Source: Callorhinchus milii
Taxonomy: Eukaryota
Assembly (NCBI RefSeq): GCF_018977255.1
Contig: NW_024704742.1
Span: forward strand, 102,426,001-102,490,000
Direction of reading: 5' to 3'
Length of the DNA: 64,000 bases
The notes under the pieces are model-generated. The model had not been told where the DNA came from and did not search any database. It saw only the letters and a program-made list of their open reading frames with translations. The position numbers and the translations under genes are program-made. This document shows, piece after piece, positions 4,134 through 60,041 of this stretch. The stretch's first letter is position 1, and every line of letters starts with the position of its first letter.

Positions 4134-4444
4134 ATTGCATATGATGTAGAGTCTTATTATGTCATTGAGATGCCTCAAAGCGCTTCCCAGAATATACGGT
4201 AGAGTGAATTAACTGTATATTTTGTGGGTGAATCGCAGCAGTCAATTTTGCACAGCAGTGTCCCACTAACAGTCTTGGAAAGCGATCCACCAATCGACTA
4301 ATGACCGGGTTCCTACTTACTGCTAGGTAAACACAGGCATGTGGAGTAAGGAAACTTGCCTAAGGTTTCGCCCTACCCAAGAATTGAGCCCAGGTCCTCT
4401 TGCTTACGAGGCAAGTGCTCTAACCACTGAGCTACAGGACTCCA
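4134..4444 (-). mobile_element. tRNA-Ala-derived SINE, family A, long subtype
   Basis: Reverse strand: GGAGTCCTGTAGCTCAGTGGTTAGAGCAC head, internal TGTTTACCTAGCAGTAAGTAGGAACCCGG segment, L2-type tail. Confidence 0.9.
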
Positions 4445-9593: not shown

Positions 9594-10557
9594 AACTCTA
9601 CCTATCCTCCTCTACCCTCAACTCCACGACCACCGATGTCCTGACAGCTGCCTGTCTGACATCGAGTCCTGGACGAGAGACAACTTTCTTCAGCTCAAAG
9701 TGCTCAAAACTGAGGCCCTCCTGATTGGCTCACGTCAGCGCCTCCGCACCTCAGGTGCTGACAGCATCAACATCCAAGGCTGCACTCTCCACCTCTCAAA
9801 GCCAGTCAGGAACCTCGGCGTTCTGTTCCTGAGCTGTCCTTTTTTCCTCATATCTGCGCCACAACTGGCACCGCCTTCCATCACCTTCGAAACATTGCCA
9901 GACTACGGCACTACCTCACCCCTCACGCTGCTGAAACTCTGGTCCACGCCTTTATCACCTCAAGGCTGGACTATGGGAACTCTCTCTTCACCGGCTTTCC
10001 CGGCACCTCCCTCCACAAGCTGCAGGTCATTCAGAACTCTGCAGCTCGTGTACTGTCCCGCACCAGGCTTCGGGACCACATCACTCCCACCCTCGCTCAC
10101 CTCCACTGGCTCCCCATCCCCCAGAGGATCAAATTCAAGATCCTCATCCTCACCTACAAGGCTATTCACGTCCTTGCTCCCTCCTACCTCTCCGACCTAC
10201 TATCCCCCTACTTAGCTGCCCGCACCCTGCGTTCCTCTGGCTCTGGTCTGCTCCACATCCCCCGCCCCAACCCCCCTACCATCGGTGGCTGGACCTTCCC
10301 CTAGGCTCTGGAACTCCATCACCCAGTGCCTTCACCTTGCCTCCTCCCTTTCCTCCTTCAAGGCCAGTCTCAAGAACTTTCTCTGTGACCGTGCCTTCAG
10401 CTCCCCTTTCGACTCTCTACCCCCTCCTCGCTCCCTCCCTTCCCTCCCCTCACCATTTCCCCCCTGCTCGGGTCCCGACCCAATTGTCCAGCACCTTGGG
10501 ACGTCCTCCTGACGTGAAAGGCGCTCTATAAATGAAATCTTGTTGGTGTTGTTGTTG
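9594..10557 (+). mobile_element. L2 LINE, 5'-truncated (RT C-terminus plus 3' UTR)
   Basis: CLSDIESWTRDNFLQLKVLKTEALLIGSRQRL, with RLDYGN, IQNSAAR and LHWLPI across frameshifts; ends GGGACGTCCTCCTGACGTGAAAGGCGCTCTATAAATG plus (TTG)n. Confidence 0.92.
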
Positions 10558-10679
10558 TACATTATGTTTCTTTGTCACTTCTCCTTTAGCAATTTGTGGG
10601 TTTGCGATTAGAGCCTCCAATCTGTCATCTGTCTTTGTTTCGTGCAATTATGAGGCTGCAATGTGCTGTCACTACTTCA

Positions 10680-11551: not shown

Positions 11552-11878
11552 ATAATAATAATAATAATAATAATCCTTGCATTTGATATAGCGCTTTTCA
11601 CGTCGGGAGGACGTCCCAAAGCGCTTCACAGAACATACTGCAAAGTGAATTGACTGTATATTTGTGGGCGAACGCGGCAGCCAATTGCGCACAGCAATGT
11701 CCCACAAACAGTCGTAGATTGAAAATGACCAATTTATTATTGTTTTTGGTTTTTGGAGGGATTATTATTAGGCGTGTGGAGTAAGGAAACTTGCCCAAGG
11801 TTTCGCCCTGCCTGGAATTGAACTCAGGTCTCTCGCTTGCAAAGCGAGTGCTCTAACCACTGAGCTACAGGACTCCAC
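11552..11878 (-). mobile_element. SINE family A, short subtype, full length and young
   Basis: A box TAGCTCAGTGG, anticodon arm CTCGC-TTTGCAA-GCGAG, B box GAGTTCAATTCC, tail hairpin loop CTCCC, (ATT)n; near-identical to 59707-60041. Confidence 0.95.
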
Positions 11879-11984: not shown

Positions 11985-12399
11985 TCATAGAATCATAGAA
12001 TAATTAAGCACCAAAGGAGGCCATTCGGCACATCGTGTCTGTCCCGGATCTTTAAAAAGAGCTATCCAAATCAATCCATACCCCTCTCTCTTCCCATAGC
12101 CCTGCAAACTTGTCCTGCCCAAATAATTATCTACTTTTCTCTTAAAAGTTGTTATCGAATTGGCTTCCATCACCCTTTCAGGCAATGCATTCCAGATCCG
12201 AACAACTTGCTGGGTGAAAAAATTTCTCCTCACCTCCCCTCTGTTTCTTTTAACAACTATTTTAAATTGGTGCCCTCAGGTTACCTATCTACCCGCCAGT
12301 GGAAACAGTTTCTCCTTGTTCACTCTATTGAATCCCCTCATGATTTTGAAAACTTCTATTAAATCTCCGCTTAACCTTCTCTGCTCTAAGGAGAATAAT
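11985..12399 (-). mobile_element. CR1 LINE 3' fragment
   Basis: RRNFFTQQVVRIWNALPERVMEANSITTFKRKVD and EKRRxRGDLIE-like coding; 3' UTR GCCGAATGGCCTCC and TTCTATGATTCTATGAT tail. Confidence 0.92.
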
Positions 12400-24405: not shown

Positions 24406-24422
24406 AGACGGGGAAATAAAGG

Positions 24423-24570
24423 AAAATAACATAAAGGCTGGTGCCCCTCATATTCCTTTATCTTTCATCTATGGAGTTAATAACATCGTCGTAGTGTTAT
24501 ATGACAATGTTATAACCTCTGTGGATGAAAGATAAAGGAATATGAGGGGCACCAGCCTTTATGTTATTTT
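24423..24570. repeat. 148-bp palindrome with perfect 47-bp arms
   Basis: 24423-24469 is the exact reverse complement of 24524-24570; the 54-bp centre is also imperfectly self-complementary. Confidence 0.95.
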
Positions 24571-24594
24571 TCTTCATTATCAATATTTTATGAC

Positions 24595-36276: not shown

Positions 36277-36971
36277 AGGCGCTGACAGCATCAGCATCCA
36301 AGGCTGCACTCTCCACCTCTCAAAGCCAGTCAGGAACCTCGGCGTTTTGTTCGACCCTGAGCTGTCCTTTCTCCCTCACATCCGCACCACAACTGGCACC
36401 GCCTTCCATTACCTCCGGAACATCGCCAGACTACGGCACTACCTCCCCTCACGCTGCTGAAACCCTGGTCCACGCCTTCGTCACCTCAAGGCTGGACTAT
36501 GGGAACTCTCTCCTCGCCGGCCTTCCCGGCACCTCCCTCCACAAGCTGCAGGTCATTCAGAACTCTGCAGCTCGTGTACTGTCCCGCACCAGGCTTCGCG
36601 ACCACATCACTCCCACCCTCGCTCGCCTCCACTGGCTCCCCATCCCCCAGAGGATTGATTTCAAGATCCTCATCCTCACCTATAAGGCCATCCACGGCCT
36701 TGCTCCCTCCTACCTCTCAAAACTACCATCTCAAAACCTTTCTCTTTGACCGAGCCTTCAGCTCCCCTCTCGACTCTCTTCCCCCTCCTCGCTCCCTCCC
36801 TTCCCTCCCCTCACCCTGACCATTTTCCCCCCTCCTCGCTCCCTCTCTTCCCTCCCCTCACCCTGACCATTTCCCCTCTGCTCGGGTCCTGACCCAACTG
36901 TGCAGCGCCTTGGGACGTCCTCCTGACGTGAAAGGCGCTTTATAAATGGAATCTTGTTGTTGTTGTTGTTG
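36277..36971 (+). mobile_element. L2 LINE 3' fragment, same subfamily as 9594-10557
   Basis: Closely matches 9753-10557; has an internal deletion near 36718 and an approximately 46-bp tandem duplication in the C-rich 3' UTR; (TTG)n tail. Confidence 0.93.
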
Positions 36972-37649: not shown

Positions 37650-37862
37650 AAAAGAAAAAGCACGAGTGCTGGAAATCCACATTAAAATCGAAACAGAAAT
37701 CCTGGAAATTCACAACAGGTCACTCTGAAAAGAATAATAGGTTACATTTCAGGCTTGACCTTTCATCAGAGCTTTCTTCAGTTTTGACAAAGGGGCACAC
37801 CCAAAACTGTAATTTTTTTTGTCTTTTAGATGTTAGCCCTAGTCCTGCTGTTCATTTCCACC
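37650..37862. mobile_element. Inverted pair of Penelope-like element ends
   Basis: Left arm GTGCTGGAAATC...AAACAGAAATCCTGGAAATTCACAACAGGTCA is reverse-complementary to the Penelope-type end at 53030-53095; right arm is a decayed plus-strand copy. Confidence 0.7.
37740..37773 (-). ncRNA. Putative minimal type I hammerhead ribozyme motif (decayed)
   Basis: Reverse strand AGCT-CTGATGA-A-AGGT-CAA-GCCT-GAAA-TG-TA-ACCT: CUGANGA core, short stem II, GAAA, UH site. Confidence 0.55.
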
Positions 37863-40960: not shown

Positions 40961-41354
40961 TGTAATTTTGGGCTAGGTTCGCATCCCTCTTTCCATTCAG
41001 GCTAAATTCAGGCACAGTATCCAATTCCACTGACTGACGAAGGATGTTCTATAAAATCAGTTCAGTTCCTGTCCTTGTTACACATAAGATTACAAGTTAC
41101 CAGTTGTCAGTATAATGGTAGAATGTCACACTGGATCCAAATATAAGAAGCAAGGAAGGGACAAAAATACAACATTCTTTAGCAAAAATGGTTAAACAAA
41201 CCTAGAGATTAATGCAGCCTTTTTAAGAGCAACAATGGTGGACTTTGTGTTTGCTCAAGCCAAATTGATAAGCTTCGTAGAAGATCAGCCATCTCCATCC
41301 CTGGTCTTCTATAGTTGGCAACCAAACAGCATGCAGATCTAATACCATTTGAGC

Positions 41355-51600: not shown

Positions 51601-52674
51601 TTACTGGAGGAAAGCCAATGCCAGCAGCTTAAGATGTCTTCCGAAGTGAAAGGCACTACCTTATGGAGGGGAGTGGAAAAAAGGAGAGGAATCAAGCAAA
51701 ATATCCTCACTATCGGGAATTGTGTGAGCTTGATAAGGATTATTAACTCTTGGTTCAAATAATCCTCTCGAAGCTATCAGTTTACATTAGATTTACTCAG
51801 TGTTGCACGTTACCTAATTGCGACTAAGTCAAACTCTGGCTCCAAACAGCACTTCAATCATGACAAGCTGTTGTTGATCCAGCCAATAAGTTCTCCTTTA
51901 TTGCTTCATTGTGCTTTTGTGTTCAGTGATATATAGCGTAACCGTAACGCTATCTCACACATAGTAAATTTAGTTTAGTGTTAAGATCCCTCCCTCTCCC
52001 TCAGCCAAACTAAGGGGTGAAACAAAATCCCCATTTCTCCTCGCACTGCAGAATTGTAACTCGCTATGAAGCTGAAATGGATGAGAGTCATTTATTCTGA
52101 ACACAAACTTCCCTTCTTCCTCCTCGAAGTTTCCTAGAGCCGTAGAGCTGGAGGTTCACAATAGGCTGGCCTAACACTTGATGTAAGACTCCTTATTTTT
52201 AGCTGTAAATCAAATGTCAGAATATGCATTGTGCAGGTAATTTAATGCTGACTCGGGACAGACCTCACTGTAAACCCTGGGGAACTGTTTTTAGTTCAGG
52301 TCACCTCAATTTGAACTGAAAACGACCCACAACCCCTTTGATTTATTGGGCTGGTTGCCCTCAGAACACTGAGGGCCAGTTCTACAGGGTTTAGAGTATA
52401 AACGGAGCTAATAAGAGCTGGTCTCATCCAAGGACCAGGAATGGATGATTGGTATTGTAGTCTGCAGTCTTGCTGCTCTTAAACCACCTTTAGGGACAAT
52501 GCTGTGAAATGGAAATCAAGCTTAGTCTAACATTTAGAAGGGAAGTATTCAGGCTTGGCCTTGGGCTCCACTATTGTTAAGCGCTCTGAGACACGTAGAG
52601 AGTGCTATATAAGTGTAAGTTGTTGTTGTTGAATTGGGTAAATACTTGAGAAAATATAATATTAAATATAATAT

Positions 52675-53106
52675 TTCTTCCACCTCCCTCTCTTCTGTGA
52701 CCATCACCAATCATTTTGGTCTCAGACATACCTTCTCTCTCCCTGATCTGCCCGTTTTTGTTGCAAGCTCTTTCCCACCCCTCCTTTTTGTTTTGCAGTA
52801 TTAACCCCTCTATTCACCTGCTTTGTTGCAATCCCCCCCCTTTGTTCTGCATCATTAACATCTGTAACCCATCACCCCCTGTCCTCTACCCCACTTTCTC
52901 TTTTGTCTTCCTTGCCCTGCCTCCCCCTCTCTGTTAGCCCTTAAAAGCTTCTCCCTCCCAAAATGCCCCAGTTCTGACGAAGGATCGTGGACCCGAAATG
53001 TTGACCCACTTTCCTTTCTCCATAGATGCTGCCTGACCTGCTGAATGTTCCCAGCGACTTCTGTTTTTGTTTTCAGATTTCCAGCATCTGCAGTATTTTG
53101 TGTTTG
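52675..53106 (+). mobile_element. Penelope-like retroelement terminal fragment
   Basis: C/T-rich run, then CAGTTCTGACGAAGG...GAAATGTTGAC...CATAGATGCTGCCTGACCTGCTGAATGTTCCCAGC...TTCAGATTTCCAGCATCTGCAGTATTTTG, the end sequence I recall from chondrichthyan Penelope-type repeats. Confidence 0.75.
52969..53006 (+). ncRNA. Putative minimal type I hammerhead ribozyme motif (decayed)
   Basis: AGTT-CTGACGA-A-GGATC-GTG-GACCC-GAAA-TG-TT-GACC: intact CUGANGA and GAAA, stem II with one mismatch. Confidence 0.6.
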
Positions 53107-53163
53107 GATAATATTAAAGGGTATGGGGAAAAGTAATGGAAGATGTACTGTGGCGACCAGAAC

Positions 53164-53706
53164 TGTGTACAGTTCTGGTCGCCACAGTACAAAAACGATA
53201 TTTAAGAAATCGAGAAGATACAGAGGAGGGCAACCAAAATGATTGAGGAATTGGAAGGACTGGACTATGAGGAGAGACTAAGTAAATTGGGCAGGTTCAC
53301 GCTGGAAAAGAGAAGATTGAGAGGTGACATGATTGCTCTCTTTAGATTCTAAAGGGACAAGACAATATAGATCATGACAGGCTGTTTCAATTTGTCCAGA
53401 ATAGTAAAATCAGAGGACACGGCCTGCGATTGAAGGAGTAAATTCAGAATGAATCTATGCAAACACTTATTTCAGTGAGCAAATAGTGAACCTGTAGAAC
53501 AGGCTTTCTAGGGAGACGGTTGAAGCAGGAAGTGTTGATTCTTTCAAACGCAGATTAGATAGTTTTCTTTTAGGAAATAACATTATGGGATATAGTACAT
53601 AGGTAGTTTGGGACATACATGCATGCGAGCACCAGGAAGGTGGAAGGCGAACTAGATGGACCTTGGGCTTTTTCGTCCAACATTTCTTATGTTCTTATGT
53701 TCTTAT
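53164..53706 (+). mobile_element. CR1 LINE, 5'-truncated
   Basis: CVQFWSPQY...EKIQRRATKMIEELEGLDYEERLSKLGRFTLEKRRLRGDMI; ends in (TTCTTATG)n. Confidence 0.93.
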
Positions 53707-59706: not shown

Positions 59707-60041
59707 GTGGAGTCCTGTAGCTCAGTGGTTAGAGCACTCGCTTTGCAAGCGAGAGACCTGAGTTCAATTCCAGGCAGGGCGAAACCTTGGGCAAGTTTCC
59801 TTACTCCACACGCCTAATAATAATCCCTCCAAAAAAACAAAAATAATAATAAATTGGTCATTTTCAATCTACGACTGTTTGTGGGACATTGCTGTGCGCA
59901 ATTGGCTGCCGCGTTTGCCCACAAATATACAGTCAATTCACTTTACAGTGTGTTCTGTGAAGCGCTTTGGGACGTCCTCCCGACGTGAAAAGCGCTATAT
60001 CAAATGCAAGGATTATTATTATTATTATTATTATTATTATT
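59707..60041 (+). mobile_element. SINE family A, short subtype, full length and young
   Basis: A box TAGCTCAGTGG; arm CTCGC-TTTGCAA-GCGAG (anticodon TGC, Ala); B box; tail AGCGCTTTGGGACGTC-CTCCC-GACGTGAAAAGCGCT; (ATT)10. Confidence 0.96.

What the first reader, a model, noticed from the sequence alone, without database searches (positions are those of the whole stretch)
52969..53006. Hammerhead-ribozyme core inside a Penelope-type element end
Seen: CTGACGA (52974-52980), hairpin GGATC/GACCC, GAAA (52995-52998), a 2-nt TG, then TT and GACC, which can pair partly with the upstream AGTT. Established: Penelope-like retroelements carry minimal type I hammerheads with a very short, often palindromic stem III that is thought to work as a dimer. 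Inference: this is such a ribozyme, with TG probably a decayed CG, so the family consensus may be an active self-cleaving RNA spread through this genome. This particular copy may be dead.
Basis: partly seen in the sequence, partly recalled or inferred. Interest (0 to 1): 0.7.

Follow-up and report, generated by a model that had tools for sequence, protein, structure and literature searches.

The report
Decayed hammerhead in Penelope-like element end
The motif is a real but mutated copy of the small self-cutting RNA design that Penelope-like jumping genes are already known to carry near their ends, left here in a short, probably inactive fragment of a very abundant repeat, so it is an ordinary example of a described kind.

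Summary
All catalytic-core letters of a minimal type I hammerhead are present, but this copy fails the published descriptor because of an A.C mismatch in stem II and does not fold as a hammerhead. It belongs to a very abundant repeat: 11,603, 21,192, 19,317 and 3,831 contig records in four public runs. Inside the 37-base motif the family majority differs from this copy at three listed places, and each repairs one broken pair: 52984 G (92-96%), 52999 C (63-80%), 53006 T (97-99%). With them the motif fits the descriptor and folds as a hammerhead. The motif lies in a ~430-base insertion with a sharp 3' end, no poly(A) and an AT-rich 8-11-base target-site duplication, as expected for a 5'-truncated Penelope-like end. 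A link to an RT/GIY-YIG ORF was not shown, and cleavage was not tested. The kind was described in 2014, and this scan has already noted it many times in this and other genomes. Correct catch, low novelty.

The parts
52676..53107 (+). Insertion body: 5'-truncated end of a high-copy repeat, read as the 3' UTR / pseudo-LTR of a Penelope-like element (starts at 52667 if the 11-base duplication is the true one); C/T-rich upstream part, hammerhead, then ~100-base tail; no poly(A)
   Evidence: Family depth starts in bin 52674-90, rises towards the 3' end and falls from 31,027 (53099-115) to 25 (53116-132) in X1; flanking duplication; sequence
52656..52675 (+). Left copy of the candidate target-site duplication: 11 bases at 52656-66, or 8 bases at 52668-75
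   Evidence: matches of 11 or more bases in 1 of 5000 random pairs, 3 of 5000 shuffles of these flanks, 12 of 5000 AT-rich natural pairs; matches of 8 or more in 61, 171 and 209 of 5000
53108..53118 (+). Right copy of the candidate target-site duplication
52970..52973 (+). Helix I, 5' arm
   Evidence: pairs with 53003-06: 3 of 4 pairs in this copy, 4 of 4 with the majority T at 53006
52974..52981 (+). Core C3-A9 plus the extra unpaired nucleotide before stem II that is typical of PLE minimal hammerheads
   Evidence: consensus line of Fig. S3; no variant of 10% or more listed here (14 rows not shown)
52982..52994 (+). Stem II, 5 pairs with a 3-base loop, G10.1-C11.1 closing pair; A at 52984 breaks the middle pair in this copy
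   Evidence: majority G at 52984 in 95, 92, 94, 96% of depth
52995..53001 (+). Core G12-A15.1, then 15.2/16.2 (TG here, CG in the family majority) and U16.1: the 4-base palindrome that can form helix III only between two molecules
53002..53002 (+). N17 (U); predicted cleavage 3' of this base
   Evidence: position from the published numbering; cleavage not tested
53003..53006 (+). Helix I, 3' arm
53026..53105 (+). ATG and the tail to the family's 3' end; possibly the first 14-26 codons of the parent ORF and the optional 30-40-base PLE tail (inference)
   Evidence: loose-end clusters at 53068 and 53100-53105; distances; no protein relative found
37651..37773 (-). Second, more decayed relative with the same core boxes and tail; A-U in place of G-C at the base of stem II
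   Evidence: local alignment score 80 against at most 42 in the reversed-window control

Best explanation
This is a dead-on-arrival, 5'-truncated copy of the 3' end (pseudo-LTR) of an endonuclease-bearing Penelope-like retroelement, inserted into an AT-rich site with a short duplication. The parent element carried a minimal type I hammerhead: helix I of 4 pairs, a 5-pair stem II, and in place of helix III a 4-base palindrome, so that two copies in a tandem transcript (or one copy helped by the element's protein) must pair to build the active site and cut after U17. After insertion this copy gathered three changes that break one pair each in helix I, stem II and the palindrome, so it most likely does not cut. 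Shown: the letters, the family, the majority letters, the fold prediction, the ends and the duplication. Inferred: Penelope parentage, dimer or protein-assisted cleavage in the parent, inactivity of this copy.
For: Majority letters repair exactly the three broken pairs in all four runs; 1 of 27 letter triples would do so, rough chance 4e-5 when positions are counted too. The majority form fits the published descriptor and its lowest-energy fold is hammerhead-shaped (-11.4 kcal/mol, stem II pairs 0.98-1.0) while this copy's is not. Extra nucleotide after A9, G10.1-C11.1 and the palindromic 15.2-16.2 are the marks given for PLE hammerheads in PMC4209133. Gradual loss of depth towards 5', sharp 3' end, opposite-strand joints at 52969-52977, no poly(A) and an AT-rich duplication match PLE insertions as described in PMC8557442 and PMC3846280 and the AT-rich cutting preference in PMC11167929. 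The family's end lies 66-103 bases past the cleavage site; in the Anolis element reverse transcription starts 111-118 bases into an ORF whose hammerhead cut lies at base 26.
Against: No RT or GIY-YIG coding remnant in or next to the insertion, and no outside copy or protein that would tie the tail to such an ORF. Only one compensatory change was seen (G-C to A-U, second copy; a similar form in one loose-end consensus of X20), and it departs from the conserved G10.1-C11.1. The two 3' end clusters are weak evidence: the loose ends at 53068 have 0.4 agreement and may in part be family variants that run on. All catalytic letters of this copy are intact and U.G wobble pairs could replace the palindrome, so 'dead' rests on a folding prediction.
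Confidence: 0.85

Rival explanations
1. The repeat is a non-autonomous short element (retrozyme-like or SINE-like) derived from a Penelope end, amplified on its own by a partner's enzyme, rather than truncated copies of an autonomous element. The hammerhead would work in tandem units.
For: No coding remnant seen; copies are short and very many; non-LTR retrozymes are reported as non-autonomous PLE derivatives, also in one cartilaginous fish (bioRxiv 10.64898/2026.07.22.740005).
Against: No tandem unit here (only one relative in the window, 15 kb away on the other strand); depth decays gradually towards 5' with no sharp 5' end, as for random truncation.
Confidence: 0.1
2. This very copy is an active or host-used ribozyme that cuts a passing transcript.
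For: All core letters and G10.1-C11.1 are intact.
Against: Three pair-breaking changes relative to the family, stem II not predicted to form; no same-strand partner in 64 kb; single minimal hammerheads did not cleave in PMC4209133.
Confidence: 0.03
3. The core boxes are a chance match inside an unrelated repeat.
For: No Rfam hammerhead match; the copy fails the strict descriptor; its fold is no more stable than shuffles (z 0.95).
Against: The family majority repairs all three broken pairs and meets the strict descriptor; 0 of 400 shuffles give the relaxed motif.
Confidence: 0.02

Closest known systems
Minimal type I hammerheads (min-HHR) in the pseudo-LTRs of metazoan Penelope-like elements (Cervera and De la Pena 2014, PMC4209133; parts 1-2 of 4 of the text and all three parts of the supplementary PDF read)
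   Same: Core boxes, extra nucleotide after A9, G10.1-C11.1, palindromic 15.2-16.2 without helix III, short helix I, U at position 17 as in many rows of Fig. S3, occurrence as thousands of single dispersed motifs from truncated elements.
   Different: This copy has an A.C mismatch in stem II and TG for CG. None of the 56 rows of Fig. S3 is from a cartilaginous fish, which this genome probably is (my recall of such repeats; not tested). No ORF link shown here.
Poseidon element of Anolis carolinensis, PAc (Frangieh et al. 2024, PMC11167929; parts 1-2 of 4 read)
   Same: Hammerhead a short way upstream of the genomic 3' end; AT-rich target; possibly two alternative 3' ends 30-40 bases apart.
   Different: In PAc the ORF starts at stem II; here the first candidate ATG lies 24 bases past the cleavage site. 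PAc cleavage was shown and needs the protein; nothing was assayed here.
Non-LTR retrozymes (Li et al., bioRxiv 10.64898/2026.07.22.740005; part 1 of 5 and search passages read)
   Same: Non-coding, type I hammerhead, related to PLE pseudo-LTRs.
   Different: Retrozymes are defined there as tandem repeats with a hammerhead in consecutive units; this is a single dispersed copy with a target-site duplication.

Membership tests
min-HHR of PLEs | CUGANGA and GAAA-NN-U-H core | tested here: met
   descriptor
min-HHR of PLEs | Stem II of 3-7 uninterrupted pairs with G10.1-C11.1, in this copy | tested here: not met
   A.C mismatch at 52984/52992; strict descriptor gives 0 hits
min-HHR of PLEs | Stem II of 3-7 uninterrupted pairs with G10.1-C11.1, in the family majority | tested here: met
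   G at 52984 in 92-96% of depth; descriptor met
min-HHR of PLEs | Helix I of 3-7 pairs | tested here: met
   3 pairs in this copy, 4 in the majority form
min-HHR of PLEs | [quoted passage not shown] | tested here: met
   A at 52981
min-HHR of PLEs | Palindromic 15.2-16.2 | tested here: met
   met in the family majority (C at 52999 in 63-80%); only U.G wobble in this copy
min-HHR of PLEs | Covariation in the stems across family members | tested here: inconclusive
   one double change in the second copy; one-sided C>T at 52986 in 4-26%; no multiple alignment could be made
min-HHR of PLEs | Self-cleavage as a dimer or with protein | not testable with these tools
   needs an assay; laid contigs only, which cannot show RNA ends
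EN+ Penelope-like elements | ORF with PLE-type RT and GIY-YIG endonuclease ending upstream of this sequence | tested here: inconclusive
   none in this truncated copy; no whole genome; outside searches blank
EN+ Penelope-like elements | Frequent 5' truncation with a fixed 3' end and no poly(A) | tested here: met
   depth profile in 4 of 4 runs, with the caution that subfamily divergence also lowers upstream depth
EN+ Penelope-like elements | Inverted or tandem pseudo-LTR arrangements | tested here: inconclusive
   12 of the 15 joints shown are opposite-strand joints (120 not shown); this locus itself has a single copy
EN+ Penelope-like elements | Optional 30-40-base tail at the 3' end | tested here: inconclusive
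   loose-end clusters at 53068 and 53105, 37 bases apart, in 4 of 4 runs, but low agreement
EN+ Penelope-like elements | Target-site duplication in AT-rich DNA | tested here: met
   11-base (or 8-base) direct repeat at both ends; the exact left end is ambiguous
Non-LTR retrozymes | Tandem units each with a hammerhead | tested here: not met
   no tandem array at this locus; other loci not examined

The most novel reading that the evidence does not exclude
The family's thousands of genomic copies keep a fossil record of hammerhead cleavage in vivo: an excess of copies whose 5' end lies exactly at 53003, made by reverse transcription of the cleaved 3' product. Depth rises 1.4-1.6-fold between 52999 and 53006 in all four runs, which fits, but it rises as much or more between 53009 and 53016, and 53003 is not among the loose ends shown, so the sign is not specific. 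If real it would be direct genomic evidence that PLE hammerheads cut during transposition, which the papers read leave open.
Probability: 0.07. Interest if true: 0.6.

Novelty: new member of a known kind. Interest (0 to 1): 0.15.

Why it matters
As a single locus it matters little: it is one worn copy among thousands. The family adds a lineage that is missing from the 2014 list of PLE hammerheads, and its size makes it a good statistical resource for an open question, namely whether these ribozymes cut during the element's life cycle (PMC8557442 calls their function unclear; PMC11167929 found cleavage dispensable in vitro and saw no RNA ends at the site).

Tried and rejected
Rfam: no hammerhead match; the miRNA-like matches at 53138-53197 come from a fold-back in the neighbouring LINE fragment. 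No whole genome is held, so no assembly-wide alignment, copy count or ORF walk was possible. Degenerate motif scans found 0 matches in viral contigs and 0 in metagenome contigs; a 22-base tail pattern gave 3 metagenome loci, which on reading have no hammerhead or tail around the match and look like chance hits in coding DNA. The short peptide from ATG 53026 found no relative (0 hits among 1.84 billion representatives; no candidate among longer proteins; no Pfam family); these are weak tests. Pfam on 36 of the 60 ORFs of 100 or more codons gave RVT_1 in 3 (12-13 kb, 31-33 kb) and none near the motif. No RNA holder listed; run X20 is only guessed to be RNA and is contigs, so nothing can be said on expression or cleavage. 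Local folds of the genomic copy are no more stable than shuffles. Two weak matches at 41034 and 48131 have no tail and were rejected as copies. Sequence look-up in earlier findings returned nothing. Lunse et al. 2017 on dimer cleavage is not held; I saw it only as cited in PMC6765202. Literature searches: hammerhead+Penelope+ribozyme 38 papers; Penelope+shark+transposable elements+cartilaginous 2 papers, not opened; six PLE terms 10 papers; 'hammerhead ribozyme'+Callorhinchus 0. These do not cover Repbase, Dfam, subscription journals or bioRxiv supplements, where this family may already be listed. I rejected 'no preferential conservation of the core among copies' as a refutation: dispersed dead copies decay neutrally, so the informative test is the majority letter, which was met.

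Full report
Observation. Read in hammerhead numbering: helix I 5' arm 52970-73, core C3-A9 52974-80, an extra A at 52981, stem II 52982-94 with a 3-base loop, G12-A15.1 52995-98, 15.2/16.2 at 52999-53000, U16.1 53001, U17 53002, helix I 3' arm 53003-06. Three pairs are broken in this copy: A.C at the outer end of helix I, A.C in the middle of stem II, and TG where a palindrome is expected. Rfam has no hammerhead match here. The published minimal-hammerhead descriptor (PMC4209133, Fig. S7) gives 0 hits in the window; a relaxed form allowing one internal stem II mismatch gives this site alone, and 0 of 400 dinucleotide shuffles give any (strict form: 3 of 400). The relaxed form was set after seeing the motif, so this test alone is not decisive.

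The family. No whole genome is held, so I laid contigs of four public runs on 52640-53140 at 80% likeness: X1 and X20 of organism A, X5 of organism B, X11 of organism C; 4 of the 24 runs listed. They gave 11,603, 3,831, 21,192 and 19,317 records, so the stretch belongs to a very abundant repeat shared by three organisms; depth is not a copy number. Within 52970-53006 the table lists five variable places. Three are majority differences: 52984 A>G (94.9, 92.4, 94.0, 95.5% for X1, X5, X11, X20), 52999 T>C (74.0, 62.7, 64.3, 80.2%) and 53006 C>T (97.4, 98.0, 96.9, 98.5%). Each repairs one of the three broken pairs. One of 27 letter triples would do that; counting positions too, the rough chance is 4e-5. 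The other two are minority changes: 52986 C>T (4-26%), which keeps a U.G pair, and 52989 G>A (0.4-17%) in the loop. No variant of 10% or more is listed in the two core boxes or at 53001-02, but 14 rows of the table were not shown. The lower share of C at 52999 fits CpG decay (inference). With the three majority letters the motif meets the strict descriptor, its lowest-energy fold is the hammerhead shape (-11.4 kcal/mol; stem II pair probabilities 0.98-1.0, helix I 0.57-0.83) and the 4-base stretch 15.1-16.1 is self-complementary; for the genomic copy all these pairs have probability 0.0 and another fold wins.

The insertion. Family depth begins in bin 52674-90, climbs towards the 3' side, and drops from 31,027 to 25 between bins 53099-115 and 53116-132 in X1, with the same drop in the other three runs. 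Some of the upstream decline may be divergence between subfamilies, not truncation. An 11-base direct repeat flanks the stretch (52656-66 and 53108-18), with an 8-base alternative left copy at 52668-75; matches of 11 or more bases arose in 1 of 5000 random pairs, 3 of 5000 shuffles of these flanks and 12 of 5000 AT-rich pairs, matches of 8 or more in 61, 171 and 209. So the insertion is about 430-440 bases, in an AT-rich site, without a poly(A) tail. Twelve of the 15 joints shown join opposite strands, several from 52969-52977 (120 more not shown), and loose ends cluster at 53068 and 53105, 37 bases apart, in all four runs. These recall the inverted 5'-truncated copies and the optional 30-40-base tail of PLE insertions (PMC8557442 and PMC3846280, search passages). 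The tail reading is weak, since the loose ends at 53068 agree only 0.4 and those at 53072 are plainly the family running on past a one-base gap. An ATG at 53026 lies 14 and 26 codons before the two end clusters; in a rotifer element the pseudo-LTR holds the first 12 codons, 22 with the tail. That is a resemblance only: the peptide found no relative.

Surroundings. One more relative lies at 37651-37773 on the minus strand (score 80; reversed-window control at most 42). It is more decayed, has G at the place of 52984, and A-U for G-C at the base of stem II. There is no same-strand partner in the window and no tandem array at the locus. No RT or GIY-YIG remnant lies in or beside the insertion. 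The window is repeat-rich animal DNA with 9 tRNA-like heads of a dispersed repeat and 3 RT fragments. I take the animal to be a cartilaginous fish from my recall of such repeats; this was not tested.

Mechanism. Established (PMC4209133): minimal hammerheads of metazoan PLEs lack a stable helix III, and two copies pair through the palindrome to build it; a single Schistosoma motif did not cleave, and dimers and trimers cleaved weakly. In the Anolis element the hammerhead cleaved only with the element's protein, cleavage was not needed for insertion in vitro, no RNA ends were seen at the site, the endonuclease preferred AT-rich DNA, and reverse transcription began inside the RNA at two nearby sites that match the genomic ends (PMC11167929). 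Inference for this family: the parent transcript held the hammerhead about 66-103 bases before the points where copying started, copying often stopped early, and short ends such as this one were scattered through the genome. The parent's ribozyme probably cut after U17 as a dimer or with protein help. This copy has since lost three pairs and has no partner, so it probably does not cut (confidence 0.85 for the whole reading). Against it: no ORF link, thin covariation, and inactivity rests on a folding model, as all catalytic letters are intact.

Membership. The family majority meets every sequence and structure feature of the minimal PLE hammerhead that I could test; this copy fails one (uninterrupted stem II) and is best called a decayed member. 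Membership of the endonuclease-bearing PLEs rests on truncation pattern, 3' end, duplication and the hammerhead type; the defining ORF was not found. It does not meet the tandem-unit definition of a non-LTR retrozyme at this locus.

Novelty. The kind is published. None of the 56 rows of Fig. S3 is a cartilaginous fish, and one search pairing the ribozyme with a chimaera genus name found 0 papers, but a 2026 preprint reports hammerhead-bearing retrozymes and PLEs in one such species (its supplements are closed and may list related families), and repeat databases were not searchable. This scan has noted the same kind before: 9 notes in this genome fit the look-up, 8 shown, and 6 were shown for other genomes; these are unchecked notes, read after my own tests, and are not counted as support. 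The boldest reading left open is that copy 5' ends pile up at the cleavage site; the depth step there (1.4-1.6-fold) is matched by a neighbouring step and is not specific. Verdict: real motif, decayed copy, new member of a known kind, interest 0.15.

Noticed in passing
window 53144-53191 (+), fragment running to about 53700: A 48-base near-perfect palindrome (2 mismatched positions) sits at the 5' end of a LINE-like 3' fragment, 26 bases after the right duplication; it looks like a fold-back at a truncated insertion and causes the miRNA-like Rfam matches. The CR1-type label is from recall; part of its translation matches the RT-bearing ORF at 12336-12395.
   Followed up: partly
window 53010-53025 and 53058-53077 (+): Two pyrimidine-rich runs ending in AG look like splice acceptors inside the element's tail, the first directly before ATG 53026; PLEs are known to keep introns near the pseudo-LTR. 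53024 is G in 33% of depth in organisms B and C but 2% in X1.
   Followed up: no
window 53020-53101 (+): The tail can fold into a long imperfect hairpin (-20.1 kcal/mol, z -1.56, 18 of 200 shuffles as good), a possible counterpart of the stem-loop where reverse transcription starts in the Anolis element.
   Followed up: partly
runs X5 and X11 against X1: Organisms B and C show subfamily letters at 17-45% (52986, 52989, 53009, 53024, 53047, 53056, 53058) that are rare in organism A, pointing to lineage-specific bursts of the family.
   Followed up: no
window 4369-4440, 11803-74, 24837-908, 33680-751, 40642-704, 43578-649, 47319-90, 59711-82, 63538-609: Nine tRNA-like heads of a ~330-base dispersed repeat (tRNA-derived SINE); two copies (11552-11878 and 59707-60034) are 98% alike, so the family is young.
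   Followed up: no
window 24415-24578: A 164-base self-inverted stretch (85% identity to its own reverse complement) between a LINE-like fragment and a SINE.
   Followed up: no
window 36781-36884: A 47-base unit repeated 2.2 times (93% match) inside a LINE-like 3' fragment that is 90-92% alike to 9751-10559.
   Followed up: no
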